From: an uncultured bacterium | Lineage (GTDB): Bacteria; Abyssobacteria; SURF-5 | Direction: 5' to 3' | NCBI GenBank assembly: GCA_964510165.1 | Contig: CAZEBC010000025.1 | Location: 16,913-31,659, forward strand | DNA length: 14,747 nucleotides | Part shown: in pieces, positions 283-14,727 of the stretch | How the letters are laid out: every line of letters starts with the position of its first letter | How positions within the stretch are numbered: position 1 is the stretch's first letter | Position numbers and translations under genes: made by a program | The notes under the pieces: model-generated | Database searches by the model: none | Seen by the model: only the letters and a program-made list of their open reading frames with translations | What the model was told of the DNA's origin: nothing

Positions 283-2607
283 ATGACGATGGTGAAGAGC
301 AAGAAGAAAACGACGCGGAAGACTCAAGCAGGCAGCGTCCCGCCGCCGAAAGCCAGGATCGAGTTCACTGTCAACGCCCTTAAGGTGTTGGAAAAGCGGT
401 ACTTGAAGAAGGATGATGACGGCAAGCCGGTAGAGCGTCCCGAGGATATGTTCTGGCGGGTGGCGCGGACCATCGCCGCTGTTGATAGGCTGTATGATGC
501 GAATGCCGACGAGATGGCGACGGCAAAAGAGTTCTATCACCTGATGGCTAACATGGAGTTCATGCCGAACTCGCCCACGCTGATGAACGCGGGCCGCGAG
601 CTGGGGCAGCTTTCGGCGTGTTTCGTGCTTCCGATTGAGGACTCAATGGACAGCATCTTCGAGGCGGTAAAAAACACCGCGCTCATTCACAAGAGCGGCG
701 GCGGGACGGGCTTTTCATTTTCACGCATACGTCCGAAGAACGACACGGTGCTTTCGACGAAGGGGATCTCGAGCGGTCCGATCTCGTTCATGAAAGTGTT
801 CGACATGGCGACGGAGACGATCAAGCAGGGCGGCACGCGCCGAGGGGCGAACATGGGCATATTGCGCGTGGACCATCCGGACATTCTGGAGTTCATTGTC
901 GCCAAGGAGAACGAGAGCCAGCTCAATAACTTCAATATTTCGGTCGCAATCACCGACGCGTTCATGCGAGCCGTTGAAAAGGACGACACCTATCCTCTGG
1001 TCAATCCGCGGACGGGCGAGGTAGTGAACCGGCTGAAGGCGCGCGAGGTGTTCGACAAGATCGTGGCGCATGCGTGGCTTAACGGCGACCCGGGCGTCGT
1101 GTTCATTGACCGGATCAACGCCGGCAACCCGACGCCGAAAGTCGGCGCGATCGAGAGCACGAATCCGTGCGGCGAACAGCCGCTGCTGCCGTATGAGTCG
1201 TGCAATCTTGGTTCGATCAACCTGGCCAAGATGGTCGTCAAGCGCAACAGTCATTACGAGATAGATTTTCCGAAGCTCGCGCGAACGGTGCGCACGGCGG
1301 TTCATTTCCTCGACAACGTGGTTGACATCAACAATTATCCGCTGCCGATCATCCGCGAGATGACGCAGGCCAACCGCAAGATCGGCCTCGGGATCATGGG
1401 CTTCGCGGATATGCTGATCCGGCTGAAGGTCCCGTACAATTCCGACAAGGCGCTCAAGGTGGCCGAGGAGGTCATGTCGTTCATCCAGAACAAAGCGCAT
1501 GACGAATCCTCGAGGATCGCGGAGGCGCGCGGCTCATTCCCGAATTATGACAAGAGCATCTATGCTGGGTCGGGCCGGCCGATGCGCAATGCGACCGTGA
1601 CGACCGTCGCTCCGACGGGCACCATCAGCATCATCTCGGGCTGTTCGAGCGGGATCGAGCCGATATTCGCGATTGCGTTCACGCGGCACGTGCTCGACAA
1701 GGAAGAGCTGATCGAGGTGCATCCGTTGTTCCGGCAGGAGGCGAAGGAGCGAGGGTTCTTCTCGCCGCAACTGATGAAGCGGATAACGGAGAGCGGCGGC
1801 ATCAAGGACCTGGCGGAGATACCGTCGGACATCAAGGAAATCTACGTGACCGCGCACGACGTGGCGCCGGAATGGCACGTGCGGATGCAGGCTGCGTTCC
1901 AGCTTCACACCGACAATGCAGTTTCGAAGACCGTGAATTTCCCGAACAGCGCCACCAAAGAAGACGTGGAGAAGGTGTACCGGCTTGCGTACAGCCTGAA
2001 CTGTAAGGGAGTGACGATTTTCCGCGACGGCAGCCGAAGCGACCAGGTGTGGACGAAGAGCACCACCAAGAAAGCTGCGACTGTAACGGGCGACGGCGAG
2101 ATACAGCCGCGCCCGCGCGCGACCGTGACGCAGGGAACGACCGAGAAGGTGGTCATCGGCTGCGGGAACCTCTACGTGACCGTCAATTCCGACGATTGCG
2201 GCATCTGCGAGGTGTTCACCAGCACCGGCCGGGCTGGCGGCTGTCCGTCACAGTCGGAGGCGACGAGCCGGCTCGTGTCGCTCTCGCTGAGGTCGGGCAT
2301 CAGCGTAGACGCGCTCATCGAGCAGCTCAAGGGAATTCGCTGCCTGTCCACCGTCGCGGCCAAACGCAACAACCCCGAGATACGCTGCCTGTCGTGTCCG
2401 GACGCCATCGGCCGCGCGATCGAGAAGTATACCAAGCATCCCAACCGCCAGATCGCTGAACTCAACGGCGAACCTGAGCCTGTGGAGAAGGCTGCCGCCC
2501 CGAAACAGCAGATGGTGGCTGCGGCCTGCCCCGATTGCGGCGCCCAGATTGAGCGCGAGGGCGGCTGCATCGTGTGCCGCGCCTGCGGTTATTCGAAGTG
2601 CAACTGA
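283..2607 (+). CDS. nrdJ: Vitamin B12-dependent (class II) ribonucleotide reductase with C-terminal TSCPD domain and Zn ribbon
   Basis: 774 aa. Motifs [38 protein letters not shown], catalytic [40 protein letters not shown]-terminal LSCPD and CPDC-x10-CxxC-GYSKC. No ATP cone and no beta-subunit gene nearby. Start may be 283 or 289; each has a purine-rich RBS. Confidence 0.95.
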
Positions 2608-2643
2608 GCGGAGAAGCGGGTCGGCGAGGTTGTCCCACAATCG

Positions 2644-2706
2644 TGTAGGTGCAAGTCCATTCGCATACCTGCGGGAAAAAGAACGTCCGAATGAATTCGC
2701 ACCTCC
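2644..2706. repeat. Inverted pair of GTAG-type REP elements (REPIN-like doublet)
   Basis: tgtaggtgcaagtccattcgcat (2644-2666) and the inverted copy gtccgaatgaattcgcacctcc (2685-2706; reverse complement ggaggtgcgaattcattcggac), 18 nt apart. The same core recurs at 9277-9294. Confidence 0.8.
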
Positions 2707-2771
2707 TCCAAATTTTCCGCATGCCCCCAACTTTCGCAAAGACGATTTTGTATGAATTGACATGAAGTGTA

Positions 2772-2799
2772 TTGACAAGAATGCGGTATGCGATATAAT
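2772..2799 (+). promoter_or_regulatory. Consensus sigma70 promoter for the hydrolase gene
   Basis: TTGACA (2772-2777) - 16 nt - TATAAT (2794-2799). A second TTGACA lies at 2757-2762. RBS GGAGG at 2841-2845 precedes ATG 2856. Confidence 0.85.
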
Positions 2800-2855
2800 T
2801 AGGGCACAGCAAACCCCTACTCGAACTCAAGGCGCACACCGGAGGAATCGCCATC

Positions 2856-4175
2856 ATGAGGAGATTCGCCCGTAGTCTCGCCGCTTTCCTCTTCCTATCT
2901 GCATGTTCCGTTTCCGCTTTTGCGGAGTCAAATACGGTCCGTGATTTGGCCCTGAAACGGGAGCTGATCCGGCAAAACAGAGAAGCGGGAAGTCCGCTGA
3001 CCTTGCAGGAAGTAGAAGCGTTTCATGCGTTCCTCACGGAACCCAAGGCGGAGATTCGGCAAACGCCGAGCATCGAGGTTGGGTTGTATGATTCGCCGGG
3101 CGCGGCGACCGCCCGTACGAACCCGCTGGGCAGCCGCATCCCGCTCATCCTTGTGCACGGAAGCGGCAGCGATATCCTGAGCGACGGCGAGTATGGCAGG
3201 GAGCTCAACGATCTGGAGCGGTGGATAGACTACGTCCGCGCGTTCAACGCGGACCCCGAGTTTTCCAGCCGCTACAAAGTGTACCGCTTCGTGTACGACA
3301 GCCAATTGGGCATCGAGCAGAACGGCGCGAACCTCGTGACCGTCCTCGACACGCTCACCAGTTACCCCGGCTGGGAGAGTGAGAATCTCGACGGTAAGAA
3401 CTTCGTCATCCTGGCGCACAGCATGGGAGGCCTGGTTTCGCGCGCCGCGATGAACATGCAGTTTTCGCTCGGGGTGGACGCCGGCCATTATTTCGGCGAC
3501 CATGTCATCAATCTGGTCACGCTTGGGACGCCGCACCGAGGCTCGCCGCTGGCGATTCCCGCGTGGGTGTACGACAGCGTCAAGCGCGGCTCGATGATGA
3601 CCGAACTTGAATTCCACTATTCGTATGAGCTTCACTACGGGTTCGATCCGACGGAGGGCGAATTCGATCTGGCGTGGGATAATTACGATGACGGCGTGCC
3701 CCAGACTGACATCACCACCTATCAGCATCTGCTGATACCGGTCTTGAAGAAAGTTGGTGGCGGACGCGACCAGCATGAGGAGTCGGTGTTTACGCCGTAT
3801 CCGGCCGTGCTGAACGCTGCCGATGCGTTTACGGGCAAGCTGATCGCGTATTGCGCGCAGAATCCGCCCCAGGGAGACGTCGATACGCTGCTGGACCTGA
3901 TGTTCTACTACACCCTCGGATTGTTGAACGAACACCATCTGCTGGGGTTTACGAGCAACAAGTTGGCCGGCCTGATAGCGGGCGACATCGGGGAGGGAAA
4001 CCTGAAACCGTACGGCGATAACGACGGTCTCGTCCCCTTCGCCAGCGCCGTATTTGACGGCGAAACCGTGGCGCAGGTCTATACCCTCGCCAACAGCGAC
4101 CATCTCAGCCTGCTCGACAAGTCGCAGGTGATCACAACTGTCAAGACCAAGCTGATTTCGATCGCTATGCCGTGA
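2856..4175 (+). CDS. Secreted alpha/beta-hydrolase (lipase/esterase, PGAP1-like)
   Basis: 439 aa. Signal peptide MRRFARSLAAFLFLSACSVSAFA; oxyanion motif LILVHG; nucleophile elbow ILAHSMGGL (Ser189); VTLGTPHRGS; candidate catalytic Asp in NDGLVP and His in SDHL. Confidence 0.85.
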   Translation: MRRFARSLAAFLFLSACSVSAFAESNTVRDLALKRELIRQNREAGSPLTLQEVEAFHAFLTEPKAEIRQTPSIEVGLYDSPGAATARTNPLGSRIPLILVHGSGSDILSDGEYGRELNDLERWIDYVRAFNADPEFSSRYKVYRFVYDSQLGIEQNGANLVTVLDTLTSYPGWESENLDGKNFVILAHSMGGLVSRAAMNMQFSLGVDAGHYFGDHVINLVTLGTPHRGSPLAIPAWVYDSVKRGSMMTELEFHYSYELHYGFDPTEGEFDLAWDNYDDGVPQTDITTYQHLLIPVLKKVGGGRDQHEESVFTPYPAVLNAADAFTGKLIAYCAQNPPQGDVDTLLDLMFYYTLGLLNEHHLLGFTSNKLAGLIAGDIGEGNLKPYGDNDGLVPFASAVFDGETVAQVYTLANSDHLSLLDKSQVITTVKTKLISIAMP

Positions 4176-4206
4176 TGAGGACGGTTTAGGGCTGGTTTTT
4201 GGCTCG

Positions 4207-4284
4207 AATCAGCGGGAATCAGCGTAATCTGCGGATAGCACATCTTTCATTTGTGACATTCGTGCGATTCCTCTTATTCGTGCT
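4207..4284. repeat. Two short-period tandem repeat tracts
   Basis: aatcagcggg / aatcagcgt / aatctgcgg at 4207-4234; atttgtgac / attcgtgcg / attcctctt / attcgtgct at 4249-4284 (four 9-bp units). Confidence 0.6.
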
Positions 4285-4323
4285 CCCACGCTTTTCGTAG
4301 TGAAATCCTACCCATTGCCCTGA

Positions 4324-4352
4324 TTGCAAACGCTGGAGGCTTTTATTATAAT
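4324..4352 (+). promoter_or_regulatory. sigma70 promoter of the pyk-bsh operon
   Basis: TTGCAA (4324-4329) - 17 nt - TATAAT (4347-4352). RBS GGAG at 4394-4397 precedes ATG 4402. Confidence 0.75.
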
Positions 4353-4401
4353 TAGCCAACGTCGAGCGTCTCCCTGCATCCCGTCATTTCAATGGAGACC
4401 A

Positions 4402-5859
4402 ATGCGTCGGACCAAGATAGTAGCGACAATCGGGCCAAGTTCGAGCGATGAGGACGCGCTCCGCCGGATACTCGCGGCGGGCATGGACGCGGCCCGGCTC
4501 AACTTCTCTCATGGGACGCATGAGAGCCACAAGCGCAGCTACGACCTCATCCGCAAGCTGGCATCCGAACTCGACACGCCGGTCGCCATCATCGCAGACC
4601 TGCAAGGCCCGAAAATCCGGACCGGCGAGCTGGCGGGCGAGCCGCTGCGTCTGAAAAAGGGTGGCGAACTGGTCATCACCACGCGTCCGATGAAGGGCCA
4701 CGACGGCATCATCTCAACCACATACGGGCGGCTTCACAAGGATGTCGAACCGGGCGACAGAGTTCTGCTCGATGACGGCGCGATGGAAGCCCGCGTTACG
4801 AAGGTCGAGGGCCGCGACATTCATTGCCAGGTGGCGTGGGGCGGCACGCTCGGCGCTCACAAGGGGATCAACCTGCCGGAGGTCAAGATATCGGAACATG
4901 CGCCGACGCGCAAGGATTTGGAGGACGCCCGGTTTGCGACCTCGCTCGGGGTGGATTATCTGGCGATGAGCTTTGTGCGCCGGGCGGACGACATAGCTCG
5001 CCTCAAGAAGTATCTGAGGCGGCACGGCGCGGACACGCCTGTCATCGCCAAGATCGAGAAGCCGGAAGCGCTTGAGAACATAGATGCGATAATCAAGGCG
5101 TCCGACGGCATCATGATTGCGCGGGGCGACCTTGGCGTTGAGATGCCGCCGGAGAAAGTGCCGCAGATACAGAAGGACCTGATTGCGAGGTGCATCGAAG
5201 CGGGCAGGCCGGTCATCACCGCCACTCAGATGCTTGAGTCCATGATAGAACGCTCGACGCCGACGCGGGCCGAGGCGTCGGACGTGGTCAACGCCATTTA
5301 CGACGGAACCGGCGCAGTCATGCTCTCGGGCGAGACGGCCATAGGGAAATACCCGGTCAATGCGGTCAGGATGATGGCGCGCATCGCGGAAGAGGCCGAC
5401 ACCTACGTGGCGGAGGAGCAGAAGAAGGAGTTTCGGCACCGACAGGTGATTGACAGCTTCGAGGACGCGATCGGGCAGGCAACGCAGACCACAGCACGCC
5501 ATTTGCCGACCCGGCTGATAGTGTGCTTCACGTCGTCCGGGTTCACGGCGTTACAGGTGTCGAGCTATCGGCCGTCGGTCCCGATAATCGCGGCCACGCA
5601 TTCCTGCGATTTGCCGCCGCGCATGAACCTGTACTGGGGAGTGCACCCGATCTGCGTGGAGAAGGCCAGCACCGTTGATGAGATGATCGCCCGGGTGGAA
5701 GATGAACTGCTCGATCGGAGAATGGTAAAGCCGGGTGACAGCATAATCATCACCGCCGGCTATCCGCTGGCCGTTCCGGGTACTACCAACATGATGCAAT
5801 TGGTGCGCGTGGGCCGGCACGGGTCGGCGCACCGACCGACAAGGAGGAAGCGGAGATAA
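4402..5859 (+). CDS. pyk: Pyruvate kinase
   Basis: 485 aa from ATG 4402 (MRRTKIVATIGPSS). Motifs ARLNFSHG, DLQGPKIRTG, KGINLP, IAKIEK, DGIMIARGDLGVE, ITATQMLESM, PTRAEASDV, VMLSGETA, C-terminal GTTN. The ORF-track start at 4324 is the -35 hexamer, not the real start. Confidence 0.97.
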   Translation: MRRTKIVATIGPSSSDEDALRRILAAGMDAARLNFSHGTHESHKRSYDLIRKLASELDTPVAIIADLQGPKIRTGELAGEPLRLKKGGELVITTRPMKGHDGIISTTYGRLHKDVEPGDRVLLDDGAMEARVTKVEGRDIHCQVAWGGTLGAHKGINLPEVKISEHAPTRKDLEDARFATSLGVDYLAMSFVRRADDIARLKKYLRRHGADTPVIAKIEKPEALENIDAIIKASDGIMIARGDLGVEMPPEKVPQIQKDLIARCIEAGRPVITATQMLESMIERSTPTRAEASDVVNAIYDGTGAVMLSGETAIGKYPVNAVRMMARIAEEADTYVAEEQKKEFRHRQVIDSFEDAIGQATQTTARHLPTRLIVCFTSSGFTALQVSSYRPSVPIIAATHSCDLPPRMNLYWGVHPICVEKASTVDEMIARVEDELLDRRMVKPGDSIIITAGYPLAVPGTTNMMQLVRVGRHGSAHRPTRRKRR

Positions 5860-7457
5860 TGGCGCAGGTACGCGAATTGTTCCTCGATTACTGCAATGAT
5901 TTTCAGAGGCTCCGTCAATTCTTCCGGTATGACCCGCGCGCGCTTCCCGCCGCCATCAGCGAGCTTCGCGGCACGCAGCAGCGGCATTTCAATGAAGACC
6001 ATCTCAACGAGATAAAGCTTTACAACAAGCGGATGGATTGCGGCGAGGAGACGCTTCGCAACATTGACAAGCTCGGCAAGAACGGCACGCTCGCGGTCGT
6101 CACGGGCCAGCAGCCGGGCATCTTCACGGGGCCGCTCTACACGATCTACAAGACTCTCACGGCGATTAAGCTCGCGAAGCACATCAGCGCCACGTTCGAG
6201 GTCGAGGCAGTTCCCGTGTTCTGGAACGCGTCTGAGGACCACGATTTTGAAGAAGTGCGGCACGTCGAGTTCATCAACCGCGATGACCGCGTCATAAGCC
6301 TGCTATACGAACCGCAGGCCGACATCGAGCGGAAATCCATTTTCGACATCCCGCTTGAGCCGTCTCTCGGTTTTCTGATTGACCTCATGGCCGGGGACAC
6401 GAGCGAGAGCGAGTTCAAGTCGTTCCTCATCGATCTGTTGAGGAATTCGCTCGGCCGCTGTTACTCGCTTGCCGATTGGTTTTCAAACCTGATGCAGGCA
6501 TTGTTCGGGGAATACGGGCTTATCATCCTTGACGCGCATCTGCCGCCCTGCCGCCAGTTGGCGCGGCCGGTAATCGGGCGCGAGATCAAGATGCCGACCC
6601 GCTCGTCCCGGCTGATTAACGAGACGGGCGCCCAGCTTCGCGCGCTTGGGTATCATCAACAGATAGAGCGTCAGCCCGACGACGTGAACTTCTTCTTCTA
6701 CGCACAAGGAAGAAGGAACAAAGTGCGCTTCAGGCAGGGCAACTTCGTGGTGGACAGCATCGGCCTGCAATACGACCAGACCGAGATGCTCGACATGCTG
6801 GCGGAGGAACCGCAGCGGTTCAGCCCGAGCGCGGCGCTGAGGCCGCTTGTGCAGGACCATATCCTGCCGACCGCCGCTTACGTTGGCGGCCCCGGCGAGA
6901 TATCGTACTTCGCGCAGATGAGAAACGTATATTCGTTCTTCGACCTGGTGATGCCCGTCATATTTCCGAGGGCGCGCGTGACGCTAGTCGAGGCGCGAAT
7001 GGCGAAAATCCTGGAGCGCTACGGACTGCACGTAAATGATGCGAACAAGAGCCGGAAAGACCTGCTCCAGACGGTGCTTTCACAGAAACTGACCAGTCCG
7101 GTCATCCAATCGTGCGACCGCAAACTCGAGGTGATCCAGGTGGTCCTCGACGAGTTCAGGCGCGAGGTGGGCGAGGTTGACCCGACGCTGGTGGAACCCG
7201 TGGACAAGCTGAAGCGCAAGATCGGTTACGAGATGGACAAGCTGCGGGACCGGCTGGCGCAATCGCAGGACCAGGACTTCGAGGTGGCGGAGCAGCAGGT
7301 GGACAAGTTGCGGGCGCACCTGTTCCCCGAGGGCAAGGAGCAGGAGCGCGTGCTCAACATATTCCCCTACCTCTTTCAACATGGCGTTCAATTGATAGCA
7401 ATTCTCGAGAAGAAGCTCGACATTATGAGTTTTGAGAGGAACGTCATCTATGTCTGA
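5859..7457 (+). CDS. bshC: Bacillithiol biosynthesis cysteine-adding enzyme BshC
   Basis: 532 aa. Motifs VVTGQQPGIFTGPLYTIYK, VFWNASEDHDFEEV, RFSPSAALRPLVQD, LPTAAYVGGPGEISYFAQ, C-terminal coiled coil and PEGKEQER. TAATG overlap with pyk; AGGAGG at 5842-5847. Confidence 0.95.
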   Translation: MAQVRELFLDYCNDFQRLRQFFRYDPRALPAAISELRGTQQRHFNEDHLNEIKLYNKRMDCGEETLRNIDKLGKNGTLAVVTGQQPGIFTGPLYTIYKTLTAIKLAKHISATFEVEAVPVFWNASEDHDFEEVRHVEFINRDDRVISLLYEPQADIERKSIFDIPLEPSLGFLIDLMAGDTSESEFKSFLIDLLRNSLGRCYSLADWFSNLMQALFGEYGLIILDAHLPPCRQLARPVIGREIKMPTRSSRLINETGAQLRALGYHQQIERQPDDVNFFFYAQGRRNKVRFRQGNFVVDSIGLQYDQTEMLDMLAEEPQRFSPSAALRPLVQDHILPTAAYVGGPGEISYFAQMRNVYSFFDLVMPVIFPRARVTLVEARMAKILERYGLHVNDANKSRKDLLQTVLSQKLTSPVIQSCDRKLEVIQVVLDEFRREVGEVDPTLVEPVDKLKRKIGYEMDKLRDRLAQSQDQDFEVAEQQVDKLRAHLFPEGKEQERVLNIFPYLFQHGVQLIAILEKKLDIMSFERNVIYV

Positions 7458-8169
7458 GAATGTGCTCGACGTGCTCGCTTTCGGGGCACATCCGGACGAC
7501 GTGGACATGACCTCGGGCGGATTGCTGTGCCGCATGGTTGACAGCGGGCTTCGCGTCGGCATCGTTGACCTGACTCGCGGCGAACTCGGCACGCGCGGCA
7601 CTCCGGAGATTCGCACCCAGGAAGCGCAGGCGGCGGCCAGAATCCTCGGTGTCAGAGTGCGGGAATGCCTTGACATGCCGGACGCGGGCGTCCGCAACAC
7701 GCTGGGGGCGCGACTCGCGGTTATCGAGGTGTTGCGGAAGTATCGGCCTCCTCTCATCATCATCCCCTACTGGGAATGCAATCATCCCGACCACGCCAAC
7801 ACGGGCGTGCTTGTGAAGGAGGCGGCATACCTGGCCGGATTGAACAAGATCGAGACGGGCCAGGAGCGGTTTCGTCCGAAGCGAGTCATCCATTACATGA
7901 CCCACTACCGCTTCGAGCCGTCCTTCATTGTGCCCATTGACGAATACTTCGAGCGCAAGATGGCGGCGGTAAGAGCACACGCCTCGCAATTTTACCGACC
8001 GGACGCGGCGGAACCGGAGACCCGCATCTCGCAGCCGGGCTTTCTTGACCTGCTGGCATTGAGAGACCGGACCTACGGCTCGATGATAGACGCGATGTAC
8101 GGCGAGCCTTACTATATGCGCGGCATGCTCCGGATCGAAAACCCCTTTGACCTGTGGTGTCGCACATGA
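7450..8169 (+). CDS. bshB1: N-acetylglucosaminyl-malate deacetylase BshB1 (PIG-L family)
   Basis: 239 aa from ATG 7450 (RBS gagagga at 7434-7440; 8-nt overlap with bshC). Motifs DVLAFGAHPDD, DLTRGELGTRGTPEIR, HPDH, AHASQF, YGEPY. Lies between bshC and bshA. Confidence 0.93.
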   Translation: MSENVLDVLAFGAHPDDVDMTSGGLLCRMVDSGLRVGIVDLTRGELGTRGTPEIRTQEAQAAARILGVRVRECLDMPDAGVRNTLGARLAVIEVLRKYRPPLIIIPYWECNHPDHANTGVLVKEAAYLAGLNKIETGQERFRPKRVIHYMTHYRFEPSFIVPIDEYFERKMAAVRAHASQFYRPDAAEPETRISQPGFLDLLALRDRTYGSMIDAMYGEPYYMRGMLRIENPFDLWCRT

Positions 8170-9260
8170 GGATCGGCATCACCTGCCACGCCACGGTCGG
8201 GGGGAGCGGCGCGATAGCGGTCGGGCTCGGGAAACTGCTGGCGGCCGCCGGACATGAGGTTCACTTTATCTGTCATGAGATGCCGTTCGGGCTGACGGGC
8301 CATCGCCACCCTCGCATTACCGTCCACGAAGTCGAGGCCACCCAATACCCGCCGCTGAAATACCCACCTTATGCGATGGCGCTCGCCGTCAAGATGGCTG
8401 CGGTCGCGAGAGAGGCCCGCCTTGACCTGTTGCATGTGCACTACGCGATCCCGCACGCGTTGAGCGCCTATCTCGCTCGCGAGATGAGCGCGCCTGACCA
8501 CCTGAAGATAGTGTGCACGCTGCATGGAACCGACATCACGCTCGTGGGAGCGGACCCCTCGTATCGGCCCTTGGTGAAGTTTTGCATCGAGGCGTGCGAC
8601 GCGGTCACCTCGGTCTCGCATTGGCTGACGGACACGGTGAAGCATTCGTTCGGGCTCAGCCGCGAAGTGCACACCATTTACAACTTTGTGGACACAAATG
8701 AGTACATGCGAATCGAGGCTCGCGTGAACGACATCCCGGTCATCGTTCACATGTCGAATTTCCGACCCGTCAAGAGGACTCTCGACGTGGTGAGAGTGTT
8801 CAAGCGCGTGCGGGAACGACGGAAGGCCCATCTCCTGATGGTCGGTGACGGACCCGACAGGGAGCGGGCATTTGAGTTGGCGCAGTCGCTGGGGATTGCG
8901 GAGGATGTCGAGTTTGCGGGAGTCACCGAGAGCGCAGTCGACATCCTGTCGTGTGCCGACGTGTTTCTCTTGCCGAGCGAGATGGAGAGTTTCGGACTGG
9001 CCGCGCTCGAGGCAATGGCCTGCGAAACGCCGGTGGTCGCAACAAACGTGGGCGGCTTGAGCGAAGTAGTCGAGGACGGCCGGACCGGCTATCTGCTGCC
9101 GCTTGGCGATACCGAATCCATGGCCTTGCGCATACTCGAGATAATCGAGAATCCGGAACTCAAGCGGCGTCTGGGTCAGCGTGGCCGCGCACTCGCACAG
9201 GAGAAATTCAGTCCACAGGCGGCGCTTCAGGCATACTTGAAAGTCTACGGTTTCCCTTAA
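8166..9260 (+). CDS. bshA: N-acetyl-alpha-D-glucosaminyl L-malate synthase BshA (GT4)
   Basis: 364 aa from ATG 8166 (ATGA overlap with the bshB1 stop). Motifs MRIGITC..VGGSG, LLHVHYAIPHA, TLHGTDITLVG, HMSNFRPVKR, ESFGLAALEAMAC. Confidence 0.94.
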   Translation: MRIGITCHATVGGSGAIAVGLGKLLAAAGHEVHFICHEMPFGLTGHRHPRITVHEVEATQYPPLKYPPYAMALAVKMAAVAREARLDLLHVHYAIPHALSAYLAREMSAPDHLKIVCTLHGTDITLVGADPSYRPLVKFCIEACDAVTSVSHWLTDTVKHSFGLSREVHTIYNFVDTNEYMRIEARVNDIPVIVHMSNFRPVKRTLDVVRVFKRVRERRKAHLLMVGDGPDRERAFELAQSLGIAEDVEFAGVTESAVDILSCADVFLLPSEMESFGLAALEAMACETPVVATNVGGLSEVVEDGRTGYLLPLGDTESMALRILEIIENPELKRRLGQRGRALAQEKFSPQAALQAYLKVYGFP

Positions 9261-9334: not shown

Positions 9335-10339
9335 TCAGCGGACAAGATACTCCGCTATCTGCACCGCGTTGAGCGCCGCGCCTTTCCTGAGGTTATCCGA
9401 CACGATCCACATGTTGAGGCCGTGCGGAACCGTGTCGTCGCGGCGGATGCGGCCGACAAAGGTTTCGTCGAGACCCTCGCAATTGATGGCCAACGGATAC
9501 AGCGCCTTCGAGGGGTCATCCACCACTTTGACGCCCGGCGCTTTCGAGAGGATTTGCCGTGCGCGTTCCGGGGTCATCTCCGACTCGAACTCGAGGTTGA
9601 CCGATTCCGAATGGCCGCGATAGACGGGCACGCGCACCGTGGTGGCGCTCACCTTGATCGAGTCGTCCTCCATTATCTTCTTGGTCTCGTTGACCATCTT
9701 CATCTCTTCTTTGGTGTAGCCGTTCTCGAGGAACACGTCGATGTGCGGCAGCGCATTGAACGCGATCTGGTGCGGATACACTCTCGGCAGATATTGGCCG
9801 CCGTTCATGAGCGCGCGGGTCTGCTCGCGCAGTTCGATGATCGCCTTCATGCCGGTGCCTGAGACCGATTGATAGGTTGAGACGACCACGCGCTTGATCC
9901 GCGCCGCGTCGTGAAGCGGCTTGAGCGCGACCACCATCTGAATCGTGGAGCAGTTCGGGTTGGCGATTATCCCCTTGTGCCTCTTGATCGCATGCGGATT
10001 GACCTCGGGGACCACGAGCGGCACGTCGGGCTCCATGCGGAACGCGCTGGTATTGTCCACTACGACACAGCCCCGCTTGATCGCCTCAGGCACATATTGC
10101 TTGCTGACGGTCGCTCCGGGTGAGGAGAGGATTATCTCGACGCCGTTCAGGCGCTCCGGCTTCAGTTCCTCCACCTTTATCTTCTCGCCATGGAACAGGA
10201 ACTCCTTGCCGACGGAACGTTGCGACGCTAAAAGCTTGAGGTTCCCGACGGGGAAATTGCGCTGCTCGACGATCTTTCGCATCTCTTCGCCGACCGCGCC
10301 AGTCGCGCCCACGATTGCTACGTTGTATTGTCTTGACAT
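9335..10339 (-). CDS. asd: Aspartate-semialdehyde dehydrogenase
   Basis: 334 aa. Motifs VAIVGATGAVG, VDNTSAFRM, PLVVPEVN, IIANPNCSTIQ (catalytic Cys), STYQSVSGTG, RVPVYRGHSE, DNLRKGAALNAVQIAE. AAAGGAG RBS upstream. Confidence 0.97.
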   Translation of the reverse strand: MSRQYNVAIVGATGAVGEEMRKIVEQRNFPVGNLKLLASQRSVGKEFLFHGEKIKVEELKPERLNGVEIILSSPGATVSKQYVPEAIKRGCVVVDNTSAFRMEPDVPLVVPEVNPHAIKRHKGIIANPNCSTIQMVVALKPLHDAARIKRVVVSTYQSVSGTGMKAIIELREQTRALMNGGQYLPRVYPHQIAFNALPHIDVFLENGYTKEEMKMVNETKKIMEDDSIKVSATTVRVPVYRGHSESVNLEFESEMTPERARQILSKAPGVKVVDDPSKALYPLAINCEGLDETFVGRIRRDDTVPHGLNMWIVSDNLRKGAALNAVQIAEYLVR

Positions 10340-10363: not shown

Positions 10364-11416
10364 CTATTCAGCGATGTACTTCGCCACAAGATCGCCGACC
10401 TGGCTTGTCGAGCAGCCCATCTGGCCGGCGGCCATGCCTTTCAAATTTCCGATGGTCCTGATGACCGCTTCCTCAATCTTTGCAGCGGCCTCCTTCTCGC
10501 CTAGGAAATCGAGCATCATCTGACACGCGCAGATCGCGGCCAGCGGATTTATGACTCCTTTGCCCGTGTACTTGGGGGCCGAGCCGCCGATCGGCTCGAA
10601 CATGGACGTGCCCGACGGGTTGATGTTGCCGCCCGCCGCGATGCCCATGCCACCCTGTATCATCGCGCCGAGGTCGGTGATGATGTCGCCGAACATGTTA
10701 TCGGTCACGATCACGTCGAACCACTCGGGATTCTTCACCATCCACATGCAGATGGCGTCCACGTGCGCGTAATCGGTCTCGATGTCGGGATATTCCTTCG
10801 CGACCTCCCTGAACGCGCGTTCCCACAGGTCGAACGCGTACGTGAGCACGTTCGTCTTGCCGCACAGCGTAAGCTTCTTTCTTTTCGCTCGCGCGCGACA
10901 GAACTCGAACGCGTAGCGCAGGCAGCGCTCGACGCCCTTGCGCGTGTTAACCGATTCCTGGATCGCGACTTCGTCGGGCGTGCCCTTCCGAAGAAAACCG
11001 CCCGCGCCCGCATACAGGCCCTCGGTGTTCTCGCGAATCACCACGAAATCTATGTCCTTGGGCTTTTTCTTTCTCACCGGCGTCTCGACGCCGGGGAATA
11101 ACTTCACGGGACGCAGATTTATGTATTGGTCGAGCGCAAACCGCAGTCTCAGCAGAATTCCCTGCTCGAGCACGCCCGGCTTGACGTTCGGATGCCCGAT
11201 GGCGCCGAGATAGATCGCCTGAAACTCTCGAAGCTGTTCAATCGCGTCCTCCGGCAGAGTTTCGCCCGTCTTCAGATATCGCTCGCCGCCGAAATCGAAT
11301 GTGGTCGTCTCGTATTTGAACCCAAACTTCTTCGAGGCGGCCTTGAGCACCTTGAGCCCCTCCGCCACCACCTCCGGCCCGGTTCCGTCACCGGGTATCA
11401 CTGCGATCGTGTGCAT
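10364..11416 (-). CDS. leuB: 3-isopropylmalate dehydrogenase
   Basis: 350 aa. Motifs [34 protein letters not shown] (IPMDH-type E..LL..R), [32 protein letters not shown]. Lies downstream of leuD and upstream of asd. Confidence 0.88.
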
Positions 11417-11495
11417 TAATCGTCCCCAGAATTCTCTGTTATTTGGCTGTAGTCTAAAGAATCCACAACGGAATCCTCGAACACGGCTTTGTCCT

Positions 11496-11619
11496 AAATC
11501 CCCTTAACCCCTTTACAAAGAGGGAACCGAGCGGCAGTTCCACTCTCCCCGCTCAGAAGAAGGGGAACCAAGCGGCAGTGCAATCTCCCCCTTTAGAAAA
11601 GGGGGATTAAGGGGGATTT
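11496..11619. repeat. Composite palindromic repeat array (AAATCCCCCTAACCCCCTTT-n-AAAGGGGGA family)
   Basis: Left end aaatccccttaacccctttacaaagagggaacc (11496-11528); two internal 40-41 bp units sharing gggaaccragcggcagt..ctcccc (11522-11550, 11563-11590); inverted right end tctccccctttagaaaagggggattaagggggattt (11584-11619). Confidence 0.9.
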
Positions 11620-11968
11620 GACTTCAGAAGCCGCCACAGTGTCTCGACCACTCCTTCGAGATTTTCGAAGACTTCTCTGTCCGAGAATCGGATAACCCTC
11701 AATCCAACCCTTGCGAGGTATTCGTCTCTTGCTTTATCCTTCTCCCGTCCTTGTTCCGTATAATGCTGACCTCCATCCAACTCGACGATGAGTTCCGCCC
11801 TTGCACAAAAAAATCAACTATATAGTTCCCAAGTATCTTCTGGCGGTAGAACTGGAATCCATCCAATTGCTTGCGCCTTATTCTCGACCAGAGCAGCTTT
11901 TCCGCTTCGGTCATATTGTTTCGGAGATTCCTCGATAGTTGTTTCAATCTGGGATTATAAGGAATCAT
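11607..11968 (-). pseudogene. DUF559/Vsr-like endonuclease gene split by a -1 frameshift (pseudogene, recoded gene or sequencing error)
   Basis: Frame 1: MIPYNPRLKQLSRNLRNNMTEAEKLLWSRIRRKQLDGFQFYRQKILGNYIVDFF. One extra T in the T7 run (A7 at 11807-11813) continues CARAELIVELDGGQHYTEQGREKDKARDEYLARVGLRVIRFSDREVFENLEGVVETLWRLLKSNPP to TAA at 11609-11607. The restored protein is 120 aa with typical DUF559 motifs. Confidence 0.9.
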
Positions 11969-11997
11969 GGCAATATCCCGTATCCGTTCGGCGCCTT

Positions 11998-12032
11998 AAA
12001 TCCCCCTAACCCCCTTCTCCAAAGGGGGAACC
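11998..12032. repeat. Further copy of the same palindromic repeat, upstream of the DUF559 gene
   Basis: aaatccccctaacccccttctccaaagggggaacc is a direct copy of 11496-11528 and is inverted relative to 11584-11619. Confidence 0.9.
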
Positions 12033-12079
12033 AACCACAAGCGTTTTCCAGGAAATACGAGCACGATCTCCCATAAGAA

Positions 12080-12601
12080 TCACCTATTCACCTTTCCCCC
12101 GCTCACCCGCTTGCGCGCGTAATTGATCAACCCGCCCGCGTCTATCAACTCCTGCATGAATGGCGGAATCGGATTCGCCCGATATTCCTTCCCGGCGCTC
12201 AAATTCCGTATGATGCCCTTTGAGATATCCACTTCGATCGTGTCGCCGTCCCTGATGCCGTCCACCGCCTCCGGACATTCGAGTATCGGCAGACCCATAT
12301 TGAACGAGTTCCTGTAGAAAATCCGCGCGAAACTCTTCGCGATGACACATGATATCCCGAGCGTCTTGATCGAAATCGGCGCGTGCTCTCGCGACGAGCC
12401 GCAGCCGAAATTGGCGCCCGCCACTATGAAGTCGCCCGCACTCGCCTTATGCACGAACTCGGCGTCCGCGTCCTCCATGCAATGCTGCGCCAGCACCTCG
12501 GGGTCGCTGGACGAGAGATAGCGCGCGGGGATGATGGCGTCGGTGTCAATATTGTCGCCATACTTCCACCCCTTTCCCTTCAGCGCATGTCTTTCCGCCA
12601 T
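12080..12601 (-). CDS. leuD: 3-isopropylmalate dehydratase small subunit
   Basis: 173 aa. Motifs [78 protein letters not shown] at 12615-12610. Confidence 0.93.
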
Positions 12602-12671: not shown

Positions 12672-13667
12672 TCAGTAGCCGACCATCTCCAGCAGCGGTT
12701 TGAGATAGTGGACAAAATACACGGTATAGAACAGATAGATGACGACTATGCCGACTATGACGACGACCACCGGGCCAATCAGCTTCGGGATCGACTCGAG
12801 CACCACCATCGCCTCGTCCTCATAAATATCGGCCACTCGCTCCAGCGACTCCGAGAAGCTGCCGGTCTCTTCGCCCACCGCAAGCACCTCACGGATCATG
12901 GGCGTAATGAACCGCGATTTACTGAGGGCCTCCGCCATGGTGGCGCCCCGCCCGATCGGAGAGGCCGCCTTCATCAGGCTATTTGTCACGACGCGGTTGC
13001 CGGCCACCGCCGCCGCGCGCTCGACGGCCTGCATCATCGGCACCGCGCTCTCAAGCTGCATCGCCAAGGTGCGCGTGAATCTCGCCATCGCCAACTTGAT
13101 CGACACCGACCGCATCAACGGGACCGAAAGCGCCACGCGGTCCCAAATCCCGCGTCCCAACGCGGTGCGCGACAAGAACGACACCGAAAGCCCGAGCGCT
13201 GCAAATGCCGCCACCGTGCCGTACGCGAGCGATTCAGCCGTCGCAATCTTGTCCGAACTGAAGACTATCGTGATCAGGAAAAACACAGCGAACGCAAAGA
13301 ATAGTTGTATAGCGGGATAGATGGAGGCCCTGATGGTGGCCCGCCTCAGCGTCAAACGCGTGTCGAAGTAGTCGGCCAGCCTTGCAAACACCGTCTCCAG
13401 ATGTCCGCTGCTCTCCCCCGCCTGCACCATCTCGACAAAGATGGGCGGGAACCTCCGCGCCCGCGCGCGCAACGCCTCGGAAAGCGTGCTGCCCGCAGCG
13501 ATGTCGTCCCCGATATCCTTGAGCGCCCTCCTCAAGCGTCTGTCCTTCGCCTCCCGCGCAATCACGGGAAACGCCCTCGACAGCGTCAATCCGGCCCCGA
13601 TCGAGACGGCCGCCTGCTTCGAGAAGTTCGCCATCGATTTCAGTGGTATTCGTCCCGCCAATATCAT
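12672..13667 (-). CDS. Type II secretion system F / PilC family inner-membrane platform protein
   Basis: 331 aa with two T2SSF repeats (FPPIFVEMVQAGESSGHLETVFARLADYF...IYP and MIREVLAVGEETGSFSESLERVADIYE), each followed by hydrophobic segments. ATGA overlap with the rluD stop. Confidence 0.9.
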   Translation of the reverse strand: MILAGRIPLKSMANFSKQAAVSIGAGLTLSRAFPVIAREAKDRRLRRALKDIGDDIAAGSTLSEALRARARRFPPIFVEMVQAGESSGHLETVFARLADYFDTRLTLRRATIRASIYPAIQLFFAFAVFFLITIVFSSDKIATAESLAYGTVAAFAALGLSVSFLSRTALGRGIWDRVALSVPLMRSVSIKLAMARFTRTLAMQLESAVPMMQAVERAAAVAGNRVVTNSLMKAASPIGRGATMAEALSKSRFITPMIREVLAVGEETGSFSESLERVADIYEDEAMVVLESIPKLIGPVVVVIVGIVVIYLFYTVYFVHYLKPLLEMVGY

Positions 13668-14674
13668 CGACCTTCCTGTCGAGACCGCGTCGTTCGAGCG
13701 AGCGACGAAGTCTCCCGAAGCAGTCCCAGCAAATTCTGAAACTCATCCGGCAGGGGCGTGCGGAACTTCAATTCCTCGCCCGTCACCGGATGCTTGAACT
13801 CCAGTTTCTCTGCGTGGAGCATGTGCCCATGAAGCCGCGAGATGGCGCTGACGACATCGGGCGCCATATGCTCGTGAAACCGCCTCAGCCTCACTCCGTA
13901 TACCGAATCGCCCACGATCGGATGCCCGATATACGCCAGATGCACCCGTATCTGATGCGTCCTTCCAGTGGTAAGCTCCAATGCCAGATGCGAGACCCCC
14001 GCGAAGCTGTCTTCCACCTTGAAGTGCGTTTTCGCGTCGCGGCTACCCACTCCGACCACCGCCATCTTTTTGCGATCGGACGGACTTCGGCCGATGGGCG
14101 CATCAATAGTCCCGCGCGATTCATCAAAGTTGCCGTATGCGAGCGCCCGATACCGCCTCTTCATCGCGCGTTCGCCAATCATCTCAACCAGCGCGCGGTG
14201 CGCGGCCTCGCTCTTCGCCACCACCAGCAGGCCCGACGTGTCCTTGTCCAGCCGGTGCACTATTCCCGGCCTTGCCGGACCCCCTATCGGTGACAGCCGC
14301 CTCGTATGCGCGAGCAGCGCGTTCACCAGCGTGCCTGCGCTCACCCCCGCCGCCGGATGCACCACCATCCCCGCCTGCTTGTTCACAACAATAATATCGT
14401 CATCCTCAAATACGATGTCCAGCGGAATCTGTTCGGGCGAAAAATCGGAGGCCTCTCTCTCTTCAACGGATACCCACACCGAATCGCCGGCCCGAAGCTT
14501 GTGGCTCGGCTTCGCTTCGTAATAGTTCACCAGGACTTTTTTCGCGTGAATAAGCGCTTGTGCGCGCGCGCGAGAAAGGTCGCGCAGTTTTGCCGAAAGA
14601 TACTGATCGAGCCTCATGCCCTCATCTTCGAGCGCAACGCTCAGCCTGTGCTCGATGCCCGCCATACTTCTCAT
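13664..14674 (-). CDS. rluD: RluA/RluD family 23S rRNA pseudouridine synthase with S4 domain
   Basis: 336 aa. S4 domain RLDQYLS..LSRARAQALI; motifs VVNKQAGMVVHP, GTLVNALL, RPGIVHRLDKDTSGLL (catalytic Asp), TGRTHQIRVH, GHPIVGD, LHA..L.FKHP. Start may be 14674 or 14665. Confidence 0.93.
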   Translation of the reverse strand: MRSMAGIEHRLSVALEDEGMRLDQYLSAKLRDLSRARAQALIHAKKVLVNYYEAKPSHKLRAGDSVWVSVEEREASDFSPEQIPLDIVFEDDDIIVVNKQAGMVVHPAAGVSAGTLVNALLAHTRRLSPIGGPARPGIVHRLDKDTSGLLVVAKSEAAHRALVEMIGERAMKRRYRALAYGNFDESRGTIDAPIGRSPSDRKKMAVVGVGSRDAKTHFKVEDSFAGVSHLALELTTGRTHQIRVHLAYIGHPIVGDSVYGVRLRRFHEHMAPDVVSAISRLHGHMLHAEKLEFKHPVTGEELKFRTPLPDEFQNLLGLLRETSSLARTTRSRQEGR

Positions 14675-14681
14675 GTTCTTT

Positions 14682-14727
14682 CCCTCTCACCCCAACCTCT
14701 CCCACCGGGAGAGGACCGGGTGAGGGA
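14682..14727. repeat. Palindromic REP-like element (CTCACCCCAACCTCTCCC-n3-GGGAGAGG-n3-GGGTGAGGG)
   Basis: Inner stem cctctccc (14696-14703) / gggagagg (14707-14714) and outer stem ctcaccc (14686-14692) / gggtgag (14718-14724), directly upstream of rluD. Confidence 0.75.

What the first reader, a model, noticed from the sequence alone, without database searches (positions are those of the whole stretch)
11496..12032. DUF559 endonuclease bracketed by its own palindromic repeats: a candidate REP-associated mobile cassette inside the leuD-leuB operon
Seen: a ~540-bp block between leuD and leuB holds one small DUF559/Vsr-like nuclease gene. Copies of one repeat family (aaatccccctaaccccctt-n-aaagggggaa) flank it in opposite orientations at 11584-11619 and 11998-12032, with another copy at 11496-11528 and two internal 40-41 bp units. 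The gene's stop codon lies inside the repeat. GC is lower: 27/60 for line 11821-11880 versus 39/60 for nrdJ line 1081-1140. Known: REP sequences similarly flank their cognate RAYT (HUH tyrosine transposase) genes, while DUF559 has the PD-(D/E)XK/Vsr-like fold and no assigned role. Inference: this is a REPtron-like unit in which a non-HUH nuclease cuts and spreads a C-rich/G-rich hairpin repeat. No target-site duplication was found.
Basis: partly seen in the sequence, partly recalled or inferred. Interest (0 to 1): 0.8.

Follow-up and report, generated by a model that had tools for sequence, protein, structure and literature searches.

The report
Dead nuclease cassette flanked by triplex-type repeats
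A small, broken DUF559 nuclease gene sits between two leucine-synthesis genes, bracketed by inverted copies of the long-known but unexplained BoxC/"triplex-motif" repeats. The same gene-plus-repeat unit recurs across many bacterial phyla, which makes this nuclease a testable candidate for what spreads those repeats.

Summary
The leuD-leuB spacer is 663 bp here, against 30-274 bp in 8 relatives. It holds one DUF559 (Vsr-fold) nuclease gene, broken by a 1-base frameshift. The gene lies between inverted repeat units, each a C5/G5 hairpin plus a third C5 or G5 block, and its stop codon lies inside the 3' unit.

The repeats are a C5 variant of the published BoxC/PIT/TM intrastrand-triplex repeats (Holder 2015). 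That paper found no mobility gene for them.

In 80 homologous loci from more than 20 phyla the gene carries the same flanks in a fixed inverted orientation, 34:4 on each side. One relative holds four dispersed copies, 92-96% identical, with sharp ends. In 201 gammaproteobacterial genomes, DUF559 and TM repeats co-occur (odds ratio 10, no correction for phylogeny).

Against a simple "the nuclease spreads the repeats" reading:
- This genome has about 164 TM-type units of another subtype and no cognate gene.
- Relatives carry about 144 C5 hairpins without a C5-type gene.
- No empty site and no target duplication were found.

The REPtron-like reading is therefore partly supported: cassette yes, mobility probable, agent unproven. 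This scan has reported the same pairing before on other DNA.

The parts
12080..12601 (-). leuD (3-isopropylmalate dehydratase small subunit), the gene upstream of the cassette and on the same strand
   Evidence: Pfam Aconitase_C, E 1.4e-21. 77-80% identical orthologues lie next to leuB in 8 family genomes.
11997..12032 (.). 5' repeat unit C. Read in gene orientation it is hairpin arm C5, loop, arm G5, TTA, third block G5-ATTT (order Y-R-R). It ends 28 nt before the ATG.
   Evidence: Same layout as the upstream unit in 34 of 80 homologous loci, against 4 in the opposite order. The TTA second loop matches Holder's TMECO type A.
11607..11968 (-). DUF559 / Vsr-fold nuclease pseudogene. The N half is read from 11968. 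The frame is lost in the A7 run at 11807-11813. The C half ends at TAA 11609-11607.
   Evidence: The conserved D...E-x-D-G-G-Q-H residues are kept. It is the only DUF559 locus in the genome. One contig of run X3 has an extra base here and an open frame.
11584..11619 (.). 3' repeat unit B. Read in gene orientation it is third block AAATCCCCC, TAA (the stop codon), arm C5-TTT, loop, arm AAA-G5 (order Y-Y-R).
   Evidence: DNA fold -8.7 kcal/mol. Same layout downstream in 34 of 80 loci, against 4 in the opposite order. This 34-nt unit also lies on many other contigs in four metagenome runs.
11541..11566 (.). Degenerate middle hairpin (C4 ... G4) between units B and A
   Evidence: families D2 and D5. 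Weak fold, -4.2 kcal/mol, z -1.05.
11495..11528 (.). Repeat unit A, a degenerate C4 copy inverted relative to B. A and B together form a gene-less doublet with the third blocks facing outward.
   Evidence: D3, I7, I8. The block 11493-11621 folds as one long palindrome, z -2.3, matched by 1 of 200 shuffles. The same outward-block doublet layout is seen in 12 of 13 close pairs elsewhere in the genome.
10364..11416 (-). leuB (3-isopropylmalate dehydrogenase), the downstream gene
   Evidence: Pfam Iso_dh, E 2.5e-94.

Best explanation
The block is a decayed copy of a selfish DNA cassette. The cassette is a ~120-codon DUF559 nuclease gene (PD-(D/E)XK, Vsr fold) carried between two inverted 'three-block' repeat units. 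Each unit is a G/C hairpin plus a third block that mirrors the neighbouring arm. These units are a C5 variant of the BoxC/PIT/TM intrastrand-triplex repeats.

Shown:
- The gene and both repeat units behave as one unit across phyla.
- The unit is an insertion in the leuD-leuB spacer of this lineage, on the same strand as the operon.
- The gene is frameshifted in this assembly.
- Related cassettes exist as several dispersed copies with sharp ends in other genomes.

Inferred: the nuclease recognises the folded or unwound three-block ends by shape more than by sequence and nicks or cuts there. Host repair or recombination then copies the cassette, and gene-less units in trans, to new sites. After the gene dies, as here, the repeats remain as fossils.
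For: 1. Architecture.
- With a strict detector, 52 of 79 loci have a C-rich hairpin within 100 nt upstream and 59 of 79 within 110 nt downstream. The background is 0.017 per 110 nt (56 in 368,885 nt).
- The order is fixed. Upstream it is Y-R-R in 34 and Y-Y-R in 4. Downstream it is Y-Y-R in 34 and Y-R-R in 4 (n=80).

2. The flanks travel with the gene. Genome G004 has only 2 CCCTCTCCC hairpins, and both flank its DUF559 gene.

3. Insertion here.
- The spacer is 663 bp, against 30-45 bp in 4 family genomes and 67-274 bp in 4 others. None of those holds DUF559.
- 0 of 80 metagenome leuD loci hold DUF559.
- GC is 46% against 58-59%.

4. Proliferation elsewhere.
- G296 has 4 copies, 92-96% identical over about 625 columns, with flanks 19-47% identical.
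- G012 has at least 4 copies, one of them frameshifted.

5. Genome-level link. Of 201 genomes, 31 have both, 14 only DUF559, 28 only TM and 128 neither. Odds ratio 10.1, Fisher p 2.8e-10. 9 of the 13 genomes with 30 or more TM units have DUF559.

6. Fold. A profile of relatives hits PDB 3hrl (E 1.6e-24) and the catalytic domain of the homing endonuclease I-Bth0305I, 3r3p (E 0.0086).

7. The 3' flank type changes 17 times on the nuclease tree, against 25.4 in shuffles (0 of 300 shuffles reach it).
Against: - No cleavage or movement was observed here.
- This genome has 181 three-block units. 164 are of the CCCTCTCCC (TMECO) type with no cognate DUF559 gene anywhere, and only 11 are of the cassette's own C5 type.
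- G009 has 144 C5 hairpins and only weak DUF559 hits inside large ORFs. G004 has 147 C5 hairpins and a DUF559 gene of another flank type.
- The 5' and 3' flank classes of one cassette agree in only 22 of 40 loci, against a shuffled mean of 17 and a maximum of 24.
- The protein tree also clusters by host phylum (26 changes against 48.7), so flank type and host are confounded.
- The odds ratio is not corrected for phylogeny, and each cassette itself contributes two units.
- No empty site with exact ends was found in the family, E. coli or Acinetobacter, and I saw no target duplication in the window.
- The cassette is rare on phages (3 of 50,697 records) and plasmids (49 of 72,556), so no vector is evident.
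Confidence: 0.6

Rival explanations
1. Repeat-parasite (homing-type) reading. The TM repeats spread or persist by some other means. DUF559 is a free-standing homing-type endonuclease that uses them as its cleavage site and as the homology for repair. On this reading the gene rides on the repeats rather than driving them.
For: - A weak but direct sequence link to the EDxHD homing endonuclease I-Bth0305I. Its abstract describes a homodimer that cuts a pseudopalindrome.
- High TM copy numbers occur in genomes without a cognate gene.
- Gene-less composites with the cassette's own layout (Y-R-R, 45 nt, Y-Y-R) recur in G004 and could be empty targets.
- 28 of 156 DUF559-free genomes still carry TM units.
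Against: - G004's cassette brings the only two units of its subtype in that genome, so pre-existing repeats are not needed at the landing site.
- The G296 copies share about 150-nt inverted ends well beyond a short target.
- No allele pair showing an uninterrupted target was found.
Confidence: 0.2
2. Resident repair or maintenance nuclease. DUF559 is a Vsr-like T/G-mismatch or damage nuclease kept for the host's benefit. The flanking units are then its expression signals (a G-rich block as ribosome-binding site, a 3' hairpin as stabiliser), or unrelated repeats that gather in the same spacers.
For: - Caulobacter VsrA carries a DUF559 domain and causes an SOS response when a cytosine methylase is deleted (passages read).
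- In many loci the G-rich third block lies 5-15 nt before the ATG.
- The proteins cluster by host phylum.
- The leuD-leuB spacer of relatives also collects other repeats.
Against: - Patchy presence: 3 of 11 genomes of the phylum and 45 of 201 gammaproteobacteria.
- Frequent decay: frameshifts, internal stops and fragments, including here.
- Low GC and multi-copy units with sharp ends.
- The third block mirrors the arm in 37 cases and copies it in 5, which a ribosome-binding role does not explain.
- Here the block is 28 nt from the ATG.
- Holder 2015 reports earlier work that found no promoter or terminator activity for PIT elements.
- No terminator-like site was found at the units here.
Confidence: 0.15

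Closest known systems
BoxC / PIT elements / TM (TMECO) intrastrand-triplex repeats (Holder et al. 2015, PMC4666352; abstract and passages read)
   Same: Three consecutive blocks: pyrimidine arm, N3-6 loop, purine arm, N3, second purine block. The TTA second loop equals their type A. The repeats are intergenic, multi-copy and wide-spread across phyla. This genome also holds 113 exact CCCTCTCCC hairpins and 164 three-block units of that type.
   Different: The cassette's own units use plain C5/G5 blocks with A/T extensions instead of CCCTCNCCC. Holder et al. state they never found transposase or integrase remnants near TMECO, and the words 'endonuclease' and 'ycjD' do not occur in their text. 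Here the units are the inverted ends of a nuclease gene.
REP / REPIN elements with their RAYT (TnpA-REP) transposases, the 'REPtron'
   Same: A single small gene is flanked by inverted copies of the palindromic repeat that also populates the genome. Gene-less doublets exist.
   Different: The enzyme has the PD-(D/E)XK Vsr fold, not the HUH Y1 fold. The repeats have a mirror-symmetric third block and lack the GTAG head. Repeat abundance does not need a resident cognate gene in the genomes examined.
EDxHD / Vsr-like homing endonucleases such as I-Bth0305I (Taylor et al. 2011, PMC3239194; abstract read)
   Same: Related nuclease core (profile hit to 3r3p, E 0.0086). Both are selfish genes that decay after fixation.
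   Different: I-Bth0305I is multidomain and sits in a group I intron of a phage recA gene. The DUF559 protein is about 120 residues, free-standing and chromosomal, and carries its own inverted repeats.
Vsr and Caulobacter VsrA repair nucleases (Matthey et al. 2026, PMC12907096; passages read)
   Same: Same fold and the same Pfam domain (DUF559 in VsrA). A DUF559-domain protein damages DNA in vivo.
   Different: No methyltransferase partner or mismatch context is evident here. No flanking-repeat architecture was reported in the passages I read.
MITEs and their parent insertion sequences (general knowledge)
   Same: A gene-carrying unit with terminal inverted repeats, plus many gene-less short derivatives.
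   Different: No known transposase family and no target-site duplication was found. The ends are structure-forming three-block units.

Membership tests
Pfam DUF559 (PF04480), Vsr-fold PD-(D/E)XK nucleases | Match to the family profile above the curated cut-off | tested here: met
   N half 59 bits and C half 56 bits, against a cut-off of 20.6. Together they cover profile positions 2-108 of 109.
Pfam DUF559 (PF04480), Vsr-fold PD-(D/E)XK nucleases | Conserved catalytic-core residues (D-F ... E-x-D-G-G-Q-H) | tested here: met
   Both halves keep the nearly invariant columns in the alignment with 13 relatives. A profile of relatives hits PDB 3hrl, E 1.6e-24.
Pfam DUF559 (PF04480), Vsr-fold PD-(D/E)XK nucleases | Intact reading frame | tested here: not met
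   The frame is lost in the A7 run at 11807-11813. One contig of run X3 (depth 5.2) has one more base and an open frame. Run X1, the likely source, agrees with the window. Run X2 does not cover the site.
BoxC/PIT/TM intrastrand-triplex repeats | Three consecutive blocks: a hairpin of a pyrimidine and a purine arm, plus a second purine (or pyrimidine) block after a short loop | tested here: met
   Units B and C. My three-block detector finds both: C25:28498-28528 and 28914-28940.
BoxC/PIT/TM intrastrand-triplex repeats | TMECO consensus CCCTCNCCC-N3-6-GGGNGAGGG-N3-GGGNGAGGG | tested here: not met
   The cassette's units are a C5 variant. A near-match to the consensus lies at window 14683-14726, and the core hairpin occurs 113 times in the genome.
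BoxC/PIT/TM intrastrand-triplex repeats | The third block is the mirror image of the neighbouring arm (triplex geometry), not a direct copy | tested here: inconclusive
   C5 blocks are symmetric, so the window is uninformative. In related cassettes with asymmetric arms the count is 37 mirror, 5 direct and 11 ties.
BoxC/PIT/TM intrastrand-triplex repeats | Forms a triplex in vitro | not testable with these tools
   Only hairpin energies could be computed.
REP-RAYT (REPtron) | HUH Y1 (IS200/IS605-like) transposase | tested here: not met
   The only Pfam families hit are DUF559, MTES_1575 and DUF2726, all nuclease folds.
REP-RAYT (REPtron) | The gene is flanked by inverted copies of the genome's repeat | tested here: met
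EDxHD homing endonucleases | Residence in an intron or intein, with extra DNA-binding domains | tested here: not met
   Free-standing, about 120 codons, in an intergenic spacer.
IS / MITE-type transposon | Target-site duplication at the ends | tested here: not met
   None was seen at the window's units. The junctions of the four G296 copies were not checked base by base for short duplications.

The most novel reading that the evidence does not exclude
DUF559 nucleases are the missing partner enzymes of the BoxC/PIT/TM triplex-forming repeats. On this reading a Vsr-fold nuclease recognises a folded three-block DNA structure and drives the spread of both its own cassette and the gene-less repeats. 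That would be a pan-bacterial, structure-directed mobility system unrelated to HUH, DDE or serine/tyrosine recombinases. It would also explain the genome instability reported at TM loci.
Probability: 0.3. Interest if true: 0.9.

Novelty: new variant of a known kind. Interest (0 to 1): 0.68.

Why it matters
BoxC/PIT/TM repeats have been known since the 1990s, occur in hundreds of bacterial genomes and are linked to genome rearrangement. No function or spreading mechanism has been assigned to them (Holder 2015). DUF559 is a very common small protein of unknown role, present even in E. coli as YcjD.

A fixed physical pairing of the two gives each a concrete, testable hypothesis. The nuclease can be assayed on three-block DNA, and a marked mini-cassette can be tested for movement.

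I found no paper stating the link. Searches were for 'DUF559' (25 papers hold the term, listing read), 'Vsr-like' plus 'homing endonuclease', and 'intrastrand triplex' / repeat / nuclease. Paywalled literature was not searched.

The window's own copy is an ordinary dead member. The value lies in the class. Earlier follow-ups of this scan already reported the class on other DNA.

Tried and rejected
- Rfam: no credible family in 11300-12200. Best hits were E 0.48 and 8.7, far below the gathering scores.
- Terminator scan: the three terminator-like sites are not at units B or C.
- Empty site: none with exact ends was found.
  - Family spacers are too diverged.
  - The metagenome leuD loci are at most 69% identical.
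  - E. coli genomes lacking the ycjD stretch carry different genes there (TetR plus RND efflux in H20) and no TM unit at the breakpoint.
  - Acinetobacter relatives share the gene but not its flanks.
- Reads: no contig joins across the cassette. No RNA holder is listed, so nothing can be said on expression.
- Exact 6-nt arm identity between the 5' and 3' units: 9 of 39 loci, against a shuffled mean of 5.9 and a maximum of 12. Not informative.
- Single-unit DNA folds are not better than shuffles, z -0.9 to -1.9.
- A phylum-wide test was not possible, because only 11 genomes of the phylum are held.
- Loci L250-L252 (G141 copies) were fetched but not analysed.
- Not done: structure prediction, complex prediction, the large representative-protein search and the protein atlas were not run. 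The PDB sequence match was judged sufficient.

Full report
WHAT IS THERE

On the minus strand the window encodes leuD (12080-12601) and leuB (10364-11416) (Pfam). Their spacer is 663 bp.

The spacer holds a DUF559 gene (11607-11968, minus strand) whose two halves lie in different frames. Each half scores well above the PF04480 cut-off. Together they cover profile positions 2-108 of 109. The conserved D...E-x-D-G-G-Q-H core is kept. The break lies in the A7 run at 11807-11813. It is the only DUF559 locus in the 4.17-Mb, 97%-complete genome.

THE REPEATS

Read in the gene's direction:
- The 5' unit (12032 to 11997) is arm C5, loop, arm G5, TTA, G5-ATTT.
- The 3' unit (11619 to 11584) is AAATC5, TAA, arm C5, loop, arm G5.
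- The TAA of the 3' unit is the stop codon.

A degenerate hairpin (11541-11566) and an inverted C4 copy (11495-11528) follow. Together with the 3' unit they form a long composite palindrome, z -2.3. The GC figures are exact: the gene is 46% GC and its neighbours 58-59%.

AN INSERTION IN THIS LINEAGE

Eight of nine genomes of the same family have leuD next to leuB.
- Spacers are about 30-45 bp in four genomes and 67-274 bp in the other four.
- None of them holds DUF559.
- Some longer spacers hold a solo unit (G009), a remnant of the G5-ATTT block (G005), or other REP-like repeats.

None of 80 metagenome leuD loci (at most 69% identical) has a DUF559 gene within 1.5 kb.

Contigs of a hot-spring run from another study (X3) tile the same leuB-cassette-leuD arrangement. 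One contig (depth 5.2) has five substitutions and one extra base at the break, which opens the frame. The likely source run agrees with the window. A third study's contigs stop on either side of the site. The frameshift is therefore probably real for this population, but an assembly error is not excluded.

WHAT THE REPEATS ARE

I read its abstract and passages.
- Their TMECO consensus is CCCTCNCCC-N3-6-GGGNGAGGG-N3-GGGNGAGGG, with TTA as one type of second loop. This is the same three-block plan.
- They report 23 copies in E. coli K-12 and occurrence in more than 260 genomes.
- They link the loci to rearrangement.
- They state that they never found transposase or integrase remnants nearby.

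The cassette's units are a C5 variant of this plan.

A direct test of the triplex geometry was possible on related cassettes whose arms are asymmetric. The third block is the mirror image of the neighbouring arm in 37 cases, a direct copy in 5 and tied in 11. This is what an intrastrand triplex needs. Neither an alternative Watson-Crick hairpin nor a simple direct-repeat binding site predicts it.

THE PAIRING IS GENERAL

I fetched 80 loci encoding close homologues (44-71% identity) from more than 20 phyla.
- A strict detector finds a C-rich hairpin within 100 nt upstream in 52 of 79 loci and downstream in 59 of 79. The background is 0.017 per 110 nt in the far flanks.
- The order is fixed. Upstream it is Y-R-R in 34 loci and Y-Y-R in 4. 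Downstream it is Y-Y-R in 34 and Y-R-R in 4.
- The block sequence varies between lineages (C5; CCCTCC; CCCCTC; CCCTCTCCC), with both arms changing together.

On a tree of the 80 proteins the 3' flank class changes 17 times, against 25.4 in shuffles (0 of 300 shuffles reach it). Host phylum is clustered as well (26 against 48.7), so the two are confounded. The 5' and 3' classes of one cassette agree only weakly: 22 of 40, against a shuffled mean of 17 and a maximum of 24.

EVIDENCE THAT THE UNIT MOVES

- G004 has exactly two CCCTCTCCC hairpins in 5.5 Mb, and they are the two flanks of its DUF559 gene. The flanks therefore arrive with the gene.
- G296 has four dispersed copies, 92-96% identical over about 625 columns, with flanks at background identity (19-47%). 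They carry long inverted ends that contain the three-block units.
- G012 has at least four copies, one frameshifted and one truncated at its 5' end. The truncated copy's similarity ends just after the 3' unit.
- Decay is common: internal stops, fragments and frameshifts appear.
- In a 201-genome sample of one gammaproteobacterial class, 45 genomes have DUF559 (E at most 1e-15) and 59 have the TMECO three-block pattern.
  - 31 have both, 14 only the gene, 28 only the repeat and 128 neither.
  - The odds ratio is 10.1, p 2.8e-10. Without the two unpublished genomes it is 10.5.
  - 9 of the 13 genomes with 30 or more units have the gene.
  - The test is not corrected for relatedness, and each cassette itself adds two units.

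EVIDENCE AGAINST A SIMPLE DRIVER MODEL

- This genome has 181 three-block units, against 8 in a reversed-sequence control. 164 are of the CCCTCTCCC type with no cognate gene, and only 11 are of the C5 type.
- G009 has 144 C5 hairpins and only weak DUF559 hits inside large ORFs.
- G004 has 147 C5 hairpins but a DUF559 gene of another type.
- Either the driver is often lost after a burst, as with MITEs, or non-cognate nucleases act on shape, or something else spreads the repeats.
- I found no empty site with exact ends, and I saw no target duplication in the window.
- The gene is rare on phages (3 of 50,697 records) and plasmids (49 of 72,556).

THE ENZYME

A profile of relatives matches PDB 3hrl ("endonuclease-like protein", E 1.6e-24). 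It also matches, weakly, the catalytic domain of the Vsr-like homing endonuclease I-Bth0305I (3r3p, E 0.0086). The abstract of Taylor 2011 was read. A DUF559-domain protein, Caulobacter VsrA, causes DNA damage in vivo when a cytosine methylase is removed (passages read). This supports nuclease activity for the family, and it is also the basis of the rival "repair enzyme" reading.

VERDICT

The unit is a dead member of a wide-spread DUF559-plus-TM-repeat cassette.
- Cassette identity is firm.
- Mobility of the class is probable.
- That the nuclease itself cuts and spreads the repeats is a reasonable inference at roughly one in three.

It works like REP-RAYT or like a homing endonuclease that carries its own ends, but it fails the defining tests of both families. 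I found no paper stating the link. This scan has reported the same pairing before on other DNA.

Noticed in passing
window 14683-14726: A four-block unit close to the E. coli TMECO consensus (CCCTC-CACCCC ... CTCTCCC-loop-GGGAGAGG ... GGGTGAGGG) lies just upstream of the start of the pseudouridine-synthase gene (13664-14674, minus strand). It is one of about 164 such units in this genome.
   Followed up: partly
own genome, e.g. C4:10890-10935, C132:10220-10280, C180:48-107, C273:935-1000: A second repeat family with a GTAGGGGCGCCCCTAC-type palindrome (a REP-like GTAG head) lies directly beside several C5 hairpins. It could be a separate REP/RAYT-type family. No search for a RAYT gene was made.
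   Followed up: no
L085:1986-2260 (G009) and L086:1998-2199 (G004): The leuD-leuB spacers of two relatives hold an inverted doublet of a GTAGGTGCGAATTTATTCGCA-type REP-like repeat. G009 also holds a solo C6 three-block unit. This spacer appears to collect repeats.
   Followed up: partly
proteins P0064, P0069, P0115; G016:C20, G009:C168, G015:C1, G023:C3: DUF559 domains lie inside very long open frames together with acetyl-CoA synthetase, DNA polymerase III alpha or carbamoyl-phosphate synthase domains. P0115 stands for 32 member sequences. These could be cassettes read through in frame inside housekeeping genes, as earlier notes of the scan claim. I did not inspect them.
   Followed up: no
L244:5030-5840 (E. 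coli K-12, sapF-ycjD-fabI): E. coli ycjD (DUF559) has a degenerate unit at its stop codon. About 170 nt downstream lie a remnant resembling a second DUF559 3' end and then a canonical TMECO unit. There is no 5' unit. Only 3346 of 5426 complete E. coli genomes hold at least 80% of this 1.1-kb stretch.
   Followed up: partly
L124, L129, L131, L141 (G004): A multi-copy composite has the cassette's layout but no gene: hairpin-G6ATTT, a 45-nt spacer, then AAATC4-hairpin. It is nested inside a further pair of inverted repeats. It could be a deletion derivative or an empty target.
   Followed up: partly
window 283-9260: Context genes by Pfam: a ribonucleotide reductase (Ribonuc_red_lgC/lgN and TSCPD domains), a PGAP1-like hydrolase, pyruvate kinase, BshC, a PIG-L deacetylase and a GT4 glycosyltransferase. 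The last three look like a bacillithiol-synthesis cluster. Aspartate-semialdehyde dehydrogenase lies at 9335-10339 (-).
   Followed up: no
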